Origin: Escherichia coli O157:H7
Lineage (GTDB): Bacteria; Pseudomonadota; Gammaproteobacteria; Enterobacterales; Enterobacteriaceae
Length of the DNA stretch: 64,000 bases
NCBI RefSeq assembly: GCF_013167455.1
Contig: NZ_CP038328.1
Reading direction: 5' to 3' (one strand)
Shown: positions 1 to 6,000 of the stretch, one piece after another
Layout of the letters: every line of letters starts with the position of its first letter
Position numbering within the stretch: the first letter of the stretch is position 1
Position numbers: made by a program

Positions 1-3000
1 AGCCGTTACTGTCGAAAACAGCAAACCTGGCGCCACGATTGTCTGGCACGAAGAGCAGCCGGGGGTTTATGCCGCGAATTATCCGGCCTATAAGCAAGGG
101 ACTGCACTAAGGGCACAACTTAGCCTTCACAACTGGAATGCTCCACTGCAATCGCATATTTATAACATTGAGGCAAACCAGAATAAGGCTCGCGTTGCCA
201 CATTATCAGCGACAAATAATGACGTTTACGCCGATAAAAAGACATTTAATACCCTCACGATCAACGTCACTGATGAGAGTGATAATCCCCTGACAAATCA
301 TCAGGTCACCTTTAAGAATGAAAAAGGAAGCGCGGAGTTTGTCGAACCGCCGCAGCAAAATACGGATGCATATGGTGTTGCCACAATAAACATGGTAAGT
401 CAGGTTGCGGAAGAAAATACGATTAGCGCCACGCTGCCAAATGGTTTTTCACAACGGATAATTGCGAAATTCGTTAGCGATTCGAGTACGCCAAAATTCA
501 AACAACTGGTTGCCGATCCAGATACCATTATTGCTGGCAACAGCCAGGGCAGTACTCTGACCGCCATCATCACAGACTTTCATAACAACCCGTTAAAAGA
601 TATGAAAGTGAATTTTGTGGCACCTGGTGGCTCGCAACTGGACAACACGACCGCCACAACAGACCAGTCCGGTATTGTGCGGGTGCACCTGACCAGTTCA
701 AAAGCTGGTAGCTATTCCGTCGATGCCTCGCTTGAGGTGGATAAAAATATTCACCAGTCGGTCACGATCACCGTGGTCCCAAACAGGGAACAATCGGTAA
801 TGACCTTGAATGCCGGGTCGGGCAGTGCGATCGCTAACAATACAAATATCGTTACCCTGACTGCCAGTGTGAAAGATGTTTATGGACACCCGTTGCCGGA
901 TGAGGATGTGAAATTTACCTTGCCAGCCTCCATGACCGGGAACTTCACGCTAAGTAGTGAAACCGCCCGCACCGATGCAAACGGTGATGCCGTGGTCACA
1001 TTGCGAGGCACAAAAGCGGGTGAGTTTACAGTTACGGCGACGCTGACCAGAAATAATACCGTTGCTTATCAGCAAGTCACTTTTATTGGGGATACAAACA
1101 GTGCGCAGCTCCAGCCGCTGACTGCCTCATTAAATTCCATTGTTGCGGGTAACAGTACGGGGAGTACCCTGACGGCAACGATCCTGGACGCTTACCAAAA
1201 TCCGCTTAAAGACCAGTTGGTCACTTTCCAGAGTAACGATGTCACTCTAAGCGAAACAGAAGTCACCACCAATACGCTGGGTCAGGCGACGGTAACAATG
1301 ACCAGCAATATTGCCGGACAACATAACGTCGTGGTGAGCCGGAAAGCGCAAGCTTCCGATAATAAAACGTTTAGTTTATCAGTGCTACCGGATGAAAGTT
1401 CGGCGAAGGTAATAAGTATAACCGGAGCCGAAAAAACGATAACGGTGGGCGAAAACATCACGCTACGGATACTCGTCCAGGACGCGTTTAACAATGTAAT
1501 CGCGGGTCAACGCGTCAGATTAAGTGCGCAGCCAACAACTAACATTACGATAGGCGATACGGCTTACACCGATAATAACGGTTATGCGTACGTTAACCTT
1601 CTCAGCACCCAACCTGGGGTTTATCAGGTGACGGCAACGCTGGACAATAACAGTAGTAGTAAGGTTGACGTGAATGTGGCAAATGGCAAACTCGAGTTAA
1701 CATCATCGAAACCAGAAACTACGGTCCATAATAGTGAGGGTATTACGCTGACCGCAACGGCGAGAAATGCGCGGGGTGAATTGATGCCAGGGCAAATTAT
1801 CACCTTTAGCGTAACGCCTGAAGGTGCAACGCTAAGCAATACAGGGGAAGTCCTTACTGACCAGTCAGGTCAGGCCAAAGTGACGCTGACCAGTGACAAA
1901 GTGAATGTCTATACCGTTACGGCCATAATGGGCAAAGATGTTCCCGTTCAGAGCCAGGTAACGGTTGCGGTTAAGGCAGATGCTAAAACGGCACATGTTG
2001 TGAGCGTCGTGGCTTCTCCTGACACCATCACCGCCGACGGCATCGATAGCAGCACCATCACTTCACGAGTAGAAGATGATTACGGATTCCCGGTTGAAGG
2101 TGTCGATATTAGTCATGGCTTAGACACCAAAGGCAGCCCGGTAGTTAATATTCCAACTACGCGTACCGATCAGTCCGGGCAAGTCACGGCGACAATAACC
2201 AGTACATTGGCAGAAACCTTAACAGTCAATGTGCAAGTTCCTGGCACAGCCAACCAATCCGCAACCATTACATTGGTTGCCGGCACGGCCGATGAAAGTA
2301 AGTCAATTTTGAAATCCGATGTTGACACTCTGAAGGCTGACTACCAGCAGAGCGCAAAACTTACGCTAACATTGCAAGACAAGTACGGTAACCCGATAGT
2401 GACGTCTGATCATCTGGAATTTGTCCAGTCAGGCCCCTTCGTGAACTTTCTCAAGTTGAGCGATATTGATTACAGCCAAAGAAATTATGGCGAGTACACC
2501 GTGACTGTCACTGGCGGAAAAGAGGGAACAGCGACACTCATTCCCATGCTGAACGGGGTTCATCAGGCAAACTTAAGCATATCGCTGAATCTCATCCAAT
2601 CGATAAAAGAAATGTCCGGTCATGTCACTGCAAACAACCATACCTTCTCCACGGCTAAATTCCCGAGCGAAGGCTTTGCAGGAGCGTATTACACACTCAA
2701 CAATGATAACTTTGAAGCGGGTAAAACCGTTGATGATTATATGTTTTCAAGTTCACAGGGTTGGGTGTCTGTCGATGCTTCGGGTAAAGTTTCTTTCGCA
2801 AATATCGGCGATCAAACGTCAGTCACAATAAGCGCTGTTCCCCGACAAGGAGGTACAACCTACCAGACCTTAATTAAGCTGAAAGGCTGGTGGGTGAATA
2901 ATGGAAATCATACCAATATCTGGCTAGCTGCCAATGCGCTCTGTCATGCTAAAAATGATGGATATAATCTTCCTGGCATCACACATTTGACGTCTGGCGA

Positions 3001-6000
3001 AAACAAACGCACGCAGGGATCACTGTATGGTGAATGGGGGAACGTTGGAGCGTTTTCCAGTAATTCGCAATTTACACCGGGAGCTTACTGGACAAGTGAA
3101 TCTGATGATTACAGTCGGCACTACTATGTGCAGATGCTAACCGGTATGACCGGAAGCGACGCTGATTCCAGCCCCCAACTGACCGCCTGCCGTAAATCAC
3201 TTTAATTTCAGCAGTTGTTATTAAAGGATACCCTTTTACGAGGGTATCCTTTCAGACTGATAACAAACGCTACATTGCCGGATGTGCTGCGCTTATCAGG
3301 CCTATATAACCCCTGCAATATATTGAATTTATTGTTTTTGTACCCCAGCCGGCATAAACGACTACTCAAGAAACTCAACAGCAACCGTTGATGTCAGCCA
3401 GACCCCGTTTTCCGCTTGCCAGAAAGGGATGCCTCGTTTCGCCATTTCCTGTGCTTTGACGGTTAAGACAACCGGCGATCCGTGTCTTGCTCCCACTTTG
3501 CGTGCCGTTGCTTCATCAGCAGAGAGATGCACGTAATGACGATCCCCTGCAATCAGCCCCTGTTTTTTTATCTCGTCAAGGAAACGGCTTGCCGTACCGT
3601 GGTAGAGAAACTGTGGCGGTGTTTTTTCGGCAAAGGAAATAGCGACCTGCGAAGTCGAATGCCCCTGAACCGCGCGGATGCACCTACCATCACTGGAATA
3701 ACTAAAACGCTTTTATCGCTGGTTGCGACCACGGTATCCAGCAATGCACGGGTTAATCGCTTGCCCGCTTTTTGGGCACAAAGTATGAGCTTATCGATAT
3801 TCGCCCATCCTTCACGGTCCAGTACGATACCAATCGCCTCCGGTTTGTGTCGGAGGACAAAACTTAAAAACTTGCTCGTATCCGCCAGCTCTTTTTCGTT
3901 GTACTTTGCCATCGCGTTTTCGTCCCTGGATTTTCTGTTTTTATTTACCAATGTCATTGTCACTGGGTTTATGAATTTTCTGCAACTCAATCCTGCGCAG
4001 AACCTTTTCCACACAGCGTAATTTTTCCCCTATGCAAAAAACGCATAGCCAGAAACATACTTGCATTTTCCCCATACCCACATGGCTGATAAGGTTTTTA
4101 AGTTCCAGGAATTTTCCTGGCTCAAGCAACACACAAACACAAAAAAACAATGGGGATTGTTATGACACAACAAGGGGATGCTGTAGCCGGGGAGCTGGCG
4201 ACAGAAAAAGTGGGCATTAAAGGGTATCTGGCTTTTTTTCTCACCATAATCTTTTTTTCCGGTGTTTTTTCCGGAACAGACAGCTGGTGGCGCGTTTTTG
4301 ATTTTTCCGTTCTGAACGGATCGTTTGGGCAACTGCCTGGTGCGAATGGAGCCACCACCTCATTTCGCGGCGCGGGTGGCGCGGGGGCTAAAGATGGCTT
4401 TCTCTTTGCGCTGGAGCTGGCACCGTCAGTCATTCTCTCTCTGGGGATTATTTCAATTACCGATGGTCTTGGTGGATTACGCGCCGCGCAGCAGTTAATG
4501 ACACCTGTGCTAAAACCGTTGTTGGGCATTCCAGGGATCTGCTCGCTGGCGCTGATCGCTAACTTGCAAAACACTGATGCCGCCGCCGGTATGACCAAAG
4601 AGCTGGCGCAGGAAGGTGAAATTACCGAACGCGATAAAGTGATTTTCGCCGCATATCAAACCAGCGGTAGCGCCATCATCACCAACTACTTCTCTTCCGG
4701 CGTCGCGGTGTTCGCCTTTCTGGGCACGTCCGTAATCGTACCTTTAGCCGTCATCCTGGTGTTTAAATTTGTCGGAGCCAACATTTTGCGCGTCTGGCTT
4801 AACTTCGAAGAACGTCGCAACCCAACGCAAGGAGCGCAAGCATGACAACTCAGGTCCGCAAAAACGTCATGGATATGTTTATCGATGGCGCGCGCCGTGG
4901 CTTTACTATCGCCACGACCAACCTGCTGCCAAACGTGGTGATGGCGTTTGTCATCATTCAGGCGCTGAAAATTACCGGCCTGCTCGACTGGGTGGGGCAT
5001 ATCTGTGAACCCGTAATGGCGCTGTGGGGATTACCCGGTGAAGCGGCAACCGTCCTTTTAGCCGCATTAATGAGTATGGGCGGCGCAGTCGGTGTTGCCG
5101 CCAGTCTGGCAACCGCTGGCGCATTAACCGGTCACGATGTCACCGTTTTACTGCCCGCGATGTATTTAATGGGCAACCCGGTGCAAAATGTCGGTCGCTG
5201 CCTGGGGACAGCCGAAGTGAATGCCAAATATTACCCGCATATCATTACGGTCTGCGTGATTAACGCATTGCTGTCGATCTGGGTTATGCAGCTTATTGTT
5301 TAACAAGGAGTTACCATGATTGATTATACCGCAGCCGGTTTTACCCTGCTGCAGGGAGCGCATTTGTATGCGCCGGAAGATCGGGGAATTTGCGATGTCC
5401 TCGTCGCTAACGGCAAAATTATCGCCGTTGCCAGTAATATCCCTTCTGACATTGTACCGGACTGCACGGTTGTCGATCTCAGCGGGCAGATCCTCTGCCC
5501 AGGTTTTATTGATCAACACGTCCATTTGATTGGCGGTGGCGGCGAAGCAGGTCCCACGACGCGCACGCCGGAAGTGGCGCTAAGTCGCCTGACGGAAGCG
5601 GGCGTCACGTCAGTGGTTGGTCTGCTGGGCACCGACTCTATCTCTCGCCACCCGGAATCCCTGCTCGCCAAGACCCGTGCGCTCAATGAAGAAGGCATCA
5701 GCGCCTGGATGCTGACCGGCGCTTATCATGTCCCTTCCCGCACCATTACGGGTTCCGTGGAAAAAGACGTGGCGATTATCGATCGTGTGATTGGCGTGAA
5801 ATGTGCCATCTCTGATCACCGTTCTGCCGCACCGGACGTTTATCACCTGGCTAATATGGCGGCAGAATCCCGCGTTGGCGGTTTGCTCGGCGGTAAACCT
5901 GGCGTCACCGTGTTCCACATGGGCGACAGTAAAAAGGCATTACAGCCTATTTATGACCTGCTGGAAAACTGCGATGTGCCGATCAGCAAGCTGCTGCCGA

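What the first reader, a model, noticed from the sequence alone, without database searches (positions are those of the whole stretch)
2..3205. Large Ig-repeat adhesin gene next to kptA
An invasin/intimin-type adhesin with at least seven Big-like repeats ends here. In the K-12 arrangement I recall a transporter gene (yjiJ) beside kptA instead, so this may be a strain-variable locus on the other flank of the fim region as well. My recollection of the reference order is the weak point.
Basis: partly seen in the sequence, partly recalled or inferred. Interest (0 to 1): 0.3.

Follow-up and report, generated by a model that had tools for sequence, protein, structure and literature searches.

The report
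Known E. coli adhesin gene iatD
The stretch is the last 3.2 kb of iatD, an already described and annotated surface adhesin gene that about one E. coli genome in eight carries between yjiJ and kptA, so the finding is real but ordinary.

Summary
Window 2-3205 (+) is an unbroken 1067-codon reading frame. It is the 3' 61% of iatD, the inverse autotransporter (type Ve) adhesin named by Goh et al. 2019 (PMC6714894) and annotated under that name in RefSeq. It holds eight clear Ig-like repeats and an invasin-like tip made of an Ig domain plus a C-type-lectin-like domain. The window is E. coli O157:H7.

But iatD does not replace yjiJ. It sits between yjiJ (just upstream of the window) and kptA. iatD DNA is present in 641 of 5426 complete genomes. 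It is tightly linked to a yjiK-yjiJ allele that is about 19% diverged from the K-12 allele, giving a two-state haplotype.

In most O157:H7 genomes iatD is frameshifted. A poly-C run 1.9 kb upstream of the window is C8 rather than the in-frame C7 (283 against 21 genomes in this clade). C6, C8 and C9 variants also recur in other lineages. This could be slippage-driven on/off switching, ordinary decay or assembly error.

Within the window, kptA (1-nt deletion) and hypT (stop at codon 17) are also disrupted.

Verdict: already known, low interest.

The parts
2..3205 (+). 3' part of iatD (codons 680-1746 plus the TAA stop). This is the passenger region of an inverse autotransporter adhesin.
   Evidence: The frame is open. 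It is 100% identical to DNA annotated iatD in many O157:H7 chromosomes. 1057 of 1067 residues match the intact O145:H28 IatD. The Goh et al. iatD primers match exactly at 2651-2668 and 3184-3205.
224..442 (+). Ig-like (Big_1 / Invasin_D3) repeat 1 of the window part
   Evidence: Self-profile hmmsearch, full-length residues 754-826, E 6.5e-29. Pfam Big_1 and Invasin_D3.
527..739 (+). Ig-like repeat 2
   Evidence: Residues 855-925, E 4.8e-29.
830..1054 (+). Ig-like repeat 3
   Evidence: Residues 956-1030, E 2.3e-32. This is the best Pfam Big_1 stretch.
1139..1339 (+). Ig-like repeat 4
   Evidence: Residues 1059-1125, E 2.4e-25.
1451..1651 (+). Ig-like repeat 5
   Evidence: Residues 1163-1229, E 6.3e-25.
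1721..1939 (+). Ig-like repeat 6
   Evidence: Residues 1253-1325, E 3.4e-26.
2027..2245 (+). Ig-like repeat 7
   Evidence: Residues 1355-1427, E 9e-27. This is the best Pfam Invasin_D3 stretch.
2333..2557 (+). Ig-like repeat 8
   Evidence: Residues 1457-1531, E 5.8e-25.
2603..2917 (+). Invasin-D4-like Ig domain of the tip
   Evidence: Pfam Invasin_D4, E 1e-5, 26.3 bits against a cut-off of 27. In the AlphaFold model (pLDDT 95.4) tip residues 16-120 are all beta. The model superposes on invasin 1cwv.
2918..3202 (+). C-type-lectin-like tip domain (invasin D5 / intimin D3 type) with two nearly invariant or invariant Cys
   Evidence: The model has the alpha/beta lectin-like topology. Foldseek matches 1cwv at E 1.4e-11 and TM 0.78, 1f00 at E 2e-6, and also snake-venom and CLEC9A C-type lectin-like domains. 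C129 and C211 of the tip are conserved across 40 homologues.
3223..3252 (.). Perfect 13-bp stem-loop 18 nt after the iatD stop; probably a transcription terminator between the convergent iatD and kptA
   Evidence: RNA fold gives -18.3 kcal/mol. The consensus terminator scan did not flag it because the T tail is short. The function is inferred.
3277..3304 (.). REP-like palindromic element (GCCGGATG...CAGGCCTA) in the iatD-kptA spacer
   Evidence: Read directly from the sequence. The resemblance to the E. coli REP consensus rests on my own knowledge and was not tested with a model.
3362..3912 (-). kptA (RNA 2'-phosphotransferase) pseudogene. One base is missing from a run of five (T4 at 3711-3714 on the + strand), which shifts the frame after codon 66.
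   Evidence: RefSeq flags it 'frameshifted'. Alignment with K-12, O145, MS7163 and other copies shows the deletion.

Best explanation
The ORF is the passenger-encoding 3' portion of iatD, a type Ve (inverse autotransporter) adhesin of the intimin/invasin family. The full-length protein has 1746 aa. The parts encoded upstream of the window are a signal peptide, a LysM-like periplasmic segment and a 12-stranded IAT beta-barrel. The barrel sits in the outer membrane and exports the C-terminal passenger. The window encodes a stalk of tandem Ig-like domains capped by an Ig plus C-type-lectin-like tip, which is the likely ligand-binding end. For the SMS-3-5 allele, published experiments show surface display and biofilm promotion on overexpression; the receptor is unknown. 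The gene belongs to a two-state chromosomal haplotype: [yjiK'-yjiJ'-iatD] in about 12% of E. coli genomes and [yjiK-yjiJ] in the rest. In the typical O157:H7 lineage, from which the window comes, the gene is usually switched off. An extra C in a poly-C run at codon 60, just after the signal peptide, stops translation at codon 67, so the Ig stalk and tip in the window are most probably not made. What is shown: identity, domain architecture, distribution, and the frameshift in related genomes. What is inferred: the secretion mechanism (from family membership) and non-expression in this strain (the tract lies outside the window).
For: Identity and annotation:
- The window is 100% identical to DNA annotated iatD in O157:H7 chromosomes.
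- Goh et al. define iatD as EcSMS35_4876, 1747 aa, surface-located and biofilm-promoting. Their primers match the window exactly.

Domain architecture:
- Pfam on the intact O145:H28 orthologue finds IAT_beta at residues 148-423 (E 1e-107), Big_1 x8 and Invasin_D3 x9.
- The window part matches Big_1 and Invasin_D3 and holds 8 repeats by self-profile.
- phmmer against PDB hits invasin 1cwv (E 3e-24) and intimin 6tpl.
- The tip model has pLDDT 95.4 and superposes on invasin D4-D5 (TM 0.78, rmsd 2.5 A) and on intimin.

Locus:
- In O157 the order is yjiJ(+) iatD(+) kptA(-). In K-12 yjiJ and kptA are 12 bp apart.
- iatD DNA is in 641 of 5426 genomes.
- The yjiK-yjiJ block is bimodal: 640 genomes are at least 90% identical to the O157 type and 4740 fall at 80-90%. 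The flanks are 97.5-98% identical.

Frameshift:
- O157 has C8, intact O145 has C7, MS7163 has C6. The reading frame stops at codon 67.
- In the O157/O55:H7 clade of about 307 genomes, 283 have C8 and 21 have C7.
Against: - The poly-C tract lies about 1.86 kb upstream of window position 1, so the state of the source genome cannot be read. Two genomes that are 100% identical over window 1-8000 (FORC_044, JEONG-1266) carry the in-frame C7.
- No expression or adhesion data exist for any O157:H7 allele.
- The LysM match is below Pfam's threshold (14.9 bits against 20.9).
- The published phenotype (biofilm) comes from overexpression in K-12 and need not reflect the native role.
Confidence: 0.9

Rival explanations
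1. The poly-C run is a true contingency (phase-variation) switch. Slipped-strand mispairing toggles iatD between ON (C7) and OFF (C6, C8, C9) at a useful frequency, and the O157:H7 copy is a reversible OFF phase rather than a dead gene.
For: - The tract sits in the 5' coding region just after the signal peptide, the classical position.
- Length variants recur in independent lineages. Within typical O157:H7 there are C8 (283 genomes), about 10 C7 genomes (PV15-279, FORC_044, JEONG-1266, TT12A, 53_142304 and others) and C9 (F6321). Among otherwise-C7 lineages there are C6 in 5 genomes, including 3 O145 strains, and C8 in 3 genomes.
- A T8 run 70 nt upstream shows no detectable variation in the same clade: 308 exact matches against a clade size of 307.
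- The rest of the 5.2-kb frame is still intact in O157:H7.
Against: - Homopolymer length is the commonest error in long-read assemblies, and no reads were examined.
- C7-C8 is short for a dedicated switch in a mismatch-repair-proficient E. coli (my own knowledge).
- About 17% of carriers have an interrupted tract (CCGTCCCC or CCTCCCCC) and are in frame, so the pure run is not conserved.
- C8 is nearly fixed in O157:H7, as expected for a single inherited lesion in a young clone. Two neighbouring genes, kptA and hypT, are also inactivated by ordinary mutations.
- No paper found describes switching.
Confidence: 0.2
2. One reading: the adhesin gene has replaced the transporter gene yjiJ next to kptA in this strain.
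For: In the window the adhesin is the immediate neighbour of kptA, and no yjiJ is visible because the window starts inside the adhesin gene.
Against: In O157:H7 chromosomes identical to the window, yjiJ (392 aa, full length) lies 210 bp upstream of the iatD start. All four intact or frameshifted carriers examined have yjiK-yjiJ-iatD-kptA.
Confidence: 0.02
3. iatD is a recently acquired mobile genomic island inserted between yjiJ and kptA.
For: The distribution is patchy, at 12% of genomes. The representatives of other Escherichia species have the K-12-type arrangement without iatD.
Against: - There is no integrase, transposase, tRNA or direct repeat at the borders.
- G+C is 45-51%, close to the neighbouring genes.
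- The presence of iatD is tied to a yjiK-yjiJ allele about 19% diverged from K-12. This points to exchange or long persistence of a whole allelic block by homologous recombination, not to insertion of an element.
- Outgroup YjiJ/YjiK proteins are, if anything, slightly closer to the O157-type allele, and one Citrobacter has an IatD-like gene downstream of yjiJ.
Confidence: 0.1

Closest known systems
IatD of E. coli SMS-3-5 (EcSMS35_4876; Goh et al. 2019, mSphere, PMC6714894)
   Same: It is the same gene. It sits in the same chromosomal position (yjiJ-kptA), has the same length class (1746-1747 aa) and the same architecture. The published cloning and antiserum primers match the window exactly. 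RefSeq names it iatD.
   Different: The O157:H7 allele usually carries C8 instead of C7 in the 5' poly-C run and is annotated 'frameshifted'. Goh et al. simply scored EDL933, Sakai and TW14359 as lacking a complete iatD and did not discuss the lesion.
Invasin of Yersinia pseudotuberculosis (PDB 1cwv)
   Same: Both are inverse autotransporters with an Ig-domain stalk and a D4-D5 superdomain (Ig plus C-type-lectin-like) closed by a disulfide. The tip model superposes at TM 0.78 and rmsd 2.5 A with 24% identity.
   Different: IatD has about twice as many Ig domains. The integrin-binding Asp811 and Asp911 of invasin align with Ala and Asn in IatD, so invasin-style beta1-integrin binding is not predicted. 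The residue roles are from my own knowledge of the invasin literature.
Intimin (Eae) of EPEC/EHEC (PDB 1f00, 6tpl)
   Same: It has the same secretion type, Big_1 domains and a lectin-like tip.
   Different: iatD is not in the LEE island. It scores far below NCBIfam's intimin cut-off (357 bits for the full-length protein, 80 bits for the window part, against 1400). The structural match is weaker (TM 0.58). No Tir-like partner is encoded nearby.
IatC / YeeJ, the other large E. coli inverse autotransporters
   Same: They share the LysM-like segment, the barrel, the Big_1 stalk and the lectin-like cap. The N-terminal 838 aa match NCBIfam's IatC N-terminal model at 1119 bits.
   Different: That score is below the IatC equivalog cut-off of 2400 bits. 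The chromosomal locus is different. The tip domain is distinct: the nearest non-IatD representative is 46% identical.
Homopolymer-tract phase-variable adhesin and outer-membrane genes (e.g. Helicobacter sabA, Neisseria opc/porA-type switches, Bordetella homopolymeric tracts)
   Same: There is a poly-C run in the 5' coding region whose length decides the reading frame, and the length is polymorphic among close relatives.
   Different: Switching has not been demonstrated. The tract is short and is not conserved in all alleles. E. coli is not known for this mechanism (my own knowledge).

Membership tests
Inverse autotransporter (type Ve secretion; intimin/invasin family) | N-terminal IAT beta-barrel translocation domain (Pfam PF11924) | tested here: met
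   The domain is not in the window. In the same gene upstream (orthologue L004 residues 148-423) IAT_beta scores E 1.1e-107 and 360 bits against a cut-off of 22.3.
Inverse autotransporter (type Ve secretion; intimin/invasin family) | C-terminal passenger made of tandem bacterial Ig-like (Big_1 / Invasin_D3) domains | tested here: met
   The window part gives Big_1 376.6 bits in 7 stretches and Invasin_D3 229.7 bits in 8 stretches. The self-profile finds 8 repeats.
Inverse autotransporter (type Ve secretion; intimin/invasin family) | Distal Ig plus C-type-lectin-like superdomain (invasin D4-D5 / intimin D2-D3) | tested here: met
   The AlphaFold model has pLDDT 95.4. Foldseek matches 1cwv at E 1.4e-11 and TM 0.78, and 1f00 at E 2e-6. 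The Cys pair is conserved.
Inverse autotransporter (type Ve secretion; intimin/invasin family) | Sec signal peptide at the N-terminus | tested here: inconclusive
   By eye there is a basic stretch, a hydrophobic stretch and A-T-A|Q at residues about 24-46 of the orthologue. No signal-peptide predictor was available. The region lies outside the window.
Inverse autotransporter (type Ve secretion; intimin/invasin family) | Periplasmic LysM domain (present in the large members, not universal) | tested here: inconclusive
   Pfam LysM gives E 0.026 and 14.9 bits, below the cut-off of 20.9. Goh et al. report a LysM domain from InterPro.
Inverse autotransporter (type Ve secretion; intimin/invasin family) | Surface exposure of the passenger | not testable with these tools
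   Immunofluorescence is published for the SMS-3-5 allele overexpressed in K-12 (PMC6714894). Nothing is available for O157:H7.
IatD orthologue group (Goh et al. 2019) | Conserved chromosomal position | tested here: met
   The gene lies between yjiJ and kptA in O157, O145, MS7163 and the Vietnamese strain. All 641 copies are single and chromosomal.
IatD orthologue group (Goh et al. 2019) | High sequence identity to the reference (paper: >98% aa among complete copies) | tested here: met
   1057 of 1067 residues (99.1%) match intact O145:H28 IatD WP_000168879.1. The SMS-3-5 primers match exactly. The SMS-3-5 protein itself was not aligned. DNA identity across carriers is mostly 96.6-100%, with a few at about 90%.
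IatD orthologue group (Goh et al. 2019) | Complete, in-frame gene | tested here: not met
   This applies to the typical O157:H7 allele. A C8 tract gives a 5242-nt gene flagged 'frameshifted', with a stop at codon 67. The state in the window's own genome cannot be read. 283 of about 307 clade members have C8.
Invasin (beta1-integrin-binding) | Asp911 in the D5 disulfide loop and the synergy residue Asp811 in D4 | tested here: not met
   The phmmer alignment to 1cwv pairs D811 with Ala and D911 with Asn (an Asp follows). The residue roles are from my own knowledge of the invasin literature.
Intimin | Score above NCBIfam's intimin equivalog cut-off; LEE location with Tir | tested here: not met
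   intimin_all scores 357.5 bits (full-length) and 80.1 bits (window part) against a cut-off of 1400. The neighbours are yjiJ and kptA, not LEE genes.
Slipped-strand (homopolymer) phase-variable gene | Homopolymer in the 5' coding region whose length sets the frame | tested here: met
   The poly-C run is at gene nt 179-186 (L001 10142-10149), outside the window. C7 is in frame; C6 and C8 are out of frame.
Slipped-strand (homopolymer) phase-variable gene | Tract length polymorphic among very close relatives, more than control tracts | tested here: inconclusive
   The clade shows C8 283, C7 21 and about 3 other, while the neighbouring T8 run is invariant. O145 isolates carry C6 or C7. Assembly error at homopolymers cannot be excluded.
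Slipped-strand (homopolymer) phase-variable gene | Reversible high-frequency ON/OFF switching of the product | not testable with these tools
   This needs culture-level read data, reporter fusions or immunoblots.

The most novel reading that the evidence does not exclude
The C7/C8 poly-C run just after the IatD signal peptide is a working slipped-strand switch. On this reading iatD is one of the very few simple-repeat phase-variable adhesin genes in E. coli. The epidemic O157:H7 lineage carries it mostly in the OFF phase, and occasional ON revertants (e.g. TT12A, 53_142304, JEONG-1266) display an extra invasin-like adhesin.
Probability: 0.2. Interest if true: 0.45.

Novelty: already known. Interest (0 to 1): 0.15.

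Why it matters
As submitted, the finding re-discovers a named, annotated and partly characterised adhesin gene and a known kind of strain-to-strain gene-content difference, so it adds little. Two by-products may be useful to O157:H7 specialists. First, the typical O157:H7 lineage differs from its O55:H7 ancestor by a single C in iatD, which removes a 1746-aa surface adhesin, and a handful of O157:H7 genomes appear to have it back in frame. Second, three genes within 9 kb (iatD, kptA, hypT) are all disrupted in this lineage. If the poly-C run really switches, it would matter for adhesion and colonisation studies and for using IatD as an antigen.

Tried and rejected
- The search for homologous proteins with the 215-aa tip returned only two short fragments and was useless. 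The exhaustive representative search was used instead.
- Rfam found nothing in window 1-9000.
- TRF and the repeat finder found no DNA-level tandem or direct repeats in iatD, so repeat-number variation of the Ig stalk is unlikely.
- The consensus terminator scan did not flag the hairpin after iatD.
- Literature searches for guessed locus tags (Z5932, ECs5292 and similar) and for O55:H7/O157:H7 pseudogene lists mentioning invasin found nothing. One search failed on syntax.
- The GTDB species scan with O157-type YjiJ did not find a donor species for the O157-type yjiK-yjiJ-iatD block, so its origin remains open.
- I rejected the 'replacement of yjiJ' reading and the 'mobile island' reading. See the rival explanations.

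
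Full report
**Observation**

The + strand frame starting at window position 2 is open for 1067 codons and ends with TAA at 3203-3205. Pfam finds Big_1 (376.6 bits, 7 stretches), Invasin_D3 (229.7 bits, 8 stretches) and a weak Invasin_D4 match. A profile built from the protein's own repeats finds eight strong Ig-like units in the part that lies in the window (E 1e-24 to 1e-32). The repeats are diverged at the DNA level: there are no tandem or direct DNA repeats. The gene runs off the left edge of the window.

**Identity**

Window 1-8000 is 100% identical to many E. coli O157:H7 chromosomes, where the ORF is annotated 'iatD: inverse autotransporter IatD'. iatD was named by Goh et al. 2019 (mSphere, PMC6714894) from strain SMS-3-5 (EcSMS35_4876, 1747 aa). 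When overexpressed in K-12 it was detected on the cell surface and promoted biofilm, but not autoaggregation or binding to extracellular matrix proteins. Two of their primers match the window exactly: the reverse cloning primer at 3184-3205 and the forward primer of the 202-aa antiserum fragment at 2651-2668. The window fragment is 99.1% identical (1057/1067) to the intact O145:H28 protein, and it starts at residue 680 of 1746.

**Architecture and likely mechanism**

In the intact orthologue Pfam finds the inverse-autotransporter beta-barrel at residues 148-423 (E 1e-107), followed by the Ig stalk. A LysM-like segment precedes the barrel but is below Pfam's threshold. The last 215 residues (window 2558-3202) were modelled from a 40-sequence alignment with mean pLDDT 95.4. 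The best solved match is the D4-D5 superdomain of Yersinia invasin (1cwv, E 1.4e-11, TM 0.78, rmsd 2.5 A), followed by intimin (1f00). Generic C-type lectin-like domains follow further down.

By family membership the protein should work as a type Ve adhesin. The N-terminal barrel inserts in the outer membrane, the C-terminal stalk is threaded out, and the lectin-like tip is presented about ten Ig domains away from the cell. This mechanism is inferred, not shown here. Invasin's integrin-binding Asp811 and Asp911 align with Ala and Asn, so an invasin-like receptor is not predicted. The intimin equivalog score is far below its cut-off. The tip is distinctive: the nearest non-IatD representative among 1.84 billion proteins is 46% identical.

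**The locus**

In O157:H7 the gene order is yjiK', yjiJ'(+), iatD(+), kptA(-), yjiH, yjiG, iadA, hypT. In K-12, yjiJ and kptA are convergent and 12 bp apart. But iatD is an extra 5.6 kb between yjiJ and kptA, not a substitute for yjiJ.

- iatD DNA occurs in 641 of 5426 complete E. coli genomes, always once and always on the chromosome. 5393 genomes have the kptA-hypT flank.
- The adjacent yjiK-yjiJ block is sharply bimodal. 640 genomes are at least 90% identical to the O157 type and 4740 fall at 80-90%, while the DNA on either side is 97.5-98% identical to K-12.
- The variable unit is thus a two-state haplotype, [yjiK'-yjiJ'-iatD] against [yjiK-yjiJ], without mobility genes or border repeats and with ordinary G+C.
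- A scan of one genome per species found that the representatives of other Escherichia species carry the K-12-type block next to kptA, without iatD.
- Citrobacter and Salmonella YjiJ/YjiK are marginally closer to the O157 type.
- One Citrobacter (L035) has a 45%-identical inverse autotransporter 1 kb downstream of yjiJ.
- The origin of the O157-type block remains open.

**State of the gene in O157:H7**

RefSeq flags iatD as 'frameshifted' in O157:H7. Alignment with intact copies places the lesion in a poly-C run at gene nt 179-186, just after the signal peptide. That is L001 10142-10149, about 1.86 kb upstream of window position 1.

- O157:H7 has C8, intact O145:H28 has C7, and MS7163 has C6 (also frameshifted). 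Other alleles have interrupted runs and are in frame. With C8 the frame stops at codon 67.
- Exact-match counts with clade-specific flanks give C8 in 283 genomes and C7 in 21, out of about 307 clade members.
- The C7 set includes all seven O55:H7 genomes listed, the early-branching 493/89 and LSU61, and about ten typical O157:H7 strains. Two of those typical strains (TT12A, 53_142304) were checked, and RefSeq annotates iatD there as an intact protein. F6321 has C9.
- A T8 run 70 nt upstream shows no detectable variation (308 exact matches).
- In other lineages C6 occurs in five genomes, including three O145 isolates, and C8 in three.

The simplest reading is a single +1 slip in the ancestor of typical O157:H7, plus a low rate of further slips or assembly errors. 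A true phase-variation switch is possible but unproven; I put it at about 0.2. The tract is outside the window, so the source genome's own state is unknown. Two genomes identical to window 1-8000 carry C7. Goh et al. scored EDL933, Sakai and TW14359 as lacking a complete iatD and do not mention the lesion. I found no paper describing it.

**Neighbours in the window**

- kptA (3362-3912, - strand) has lost one base from a run of five (3711-3714) and is out of frame after codon 66.
- hypT has TAT to TAA at codon 17 (6601-6603), and RefSeq annotates a shortened CDS.
- Between iatD and kptA lie a perfect 13-bp hairpin (3223-3252, -18.3 kcal/mol) and a REP-like palindrome (3277-3304).

**Verdict**

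The gene is already named, annotated and partly characterised, so novelty is 'already known' and interest is low. The poly-C polymorphism is the only lead that might repay further work.

Noticed in passing
L001 10142-10149 (NZ_CP022050.2), about 1.86 kb upstream of window position 1: A poly-C run in the 5' end of iatD decides the reading frame: C8 in most O157:H7 genomes (frameshifted), C7 in O55:H7, O145:H28 and about 10 typical O157:H7, C9 in F6321, and C6 in MS7163 and three O145 isolates. A neighbouring T8 run is invariant.
   Followed up: yes
window 3362-3912 (- strand); lesion at 3711-3714: kptA (RNA 2'-phosphotransferase) is a pseudogene here. One base is deleted from a run of five and the frame is lost after codon 66. 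It is intact in K-12, O145:H28, MS7163 and MB53.
   Followed up: yes
window 6553-7464 (+ strand); stop at 6601-6603: hypT (hypochlorite-responsive LysR regulator) has TAT to TAA at codon 17, which is Tyr in O145 and K-12. RefSeq annotates a shortened CDS starting at a CTG at 6610. This is the third disrupted gene within 9 kb of this O157:H7 locus.
   Followed up: partly
L001 7665-9753 (yjiK-yjiJ, just upstream of the window): The yjiK-yjiJ block exists in two sharply distinct alleles about 19% apart in DNA, with no intermediates (640 against 4740 genomes). The rarer allele is the one linked to iatD. The flanks on both sides are 97.5-98% identical.
   Followed up: yes
L001 4873-7670 (espX6 at 5210-7399): O157:H7 has a further 2.8-kb segment with the T3SS effector gene espX6 between the DUF3343 gene (ytiA) and yjiK. 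It has no counterpart in K-12.
   Followed up: partly
L006 3789-4843 (strain MB53, NZ_CP073939.1): An IS1A element abuts a 354-nt 3' remnant of iatD next to kptA, with yjiA on the other side of the IS. This looks like an IS1-associated deletion that removed most of iatD and the genes up to yjiA.
   Followed up: no
L035 10120-13248 (Citrobacter sp. Cu233): A 1042-aa inverse autotransporter, 45% identical to the first 700 aa of IatD and with a similar lectin-like tip, lies 1 kb downstream of a yjiJ homologue in an otherwise different gene context. This is a possible trace of an old yjiJ-adhesin association.
   Followed up: partly
L001 about 10070-10078 (iatD codon 37): The O157/O55:H7 clade has A2T8 where other alleles have A3T7. 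This single substitution (Ile to Phe in the signal-peptide region) lengthens a T run to 8.
   Followed up: partly
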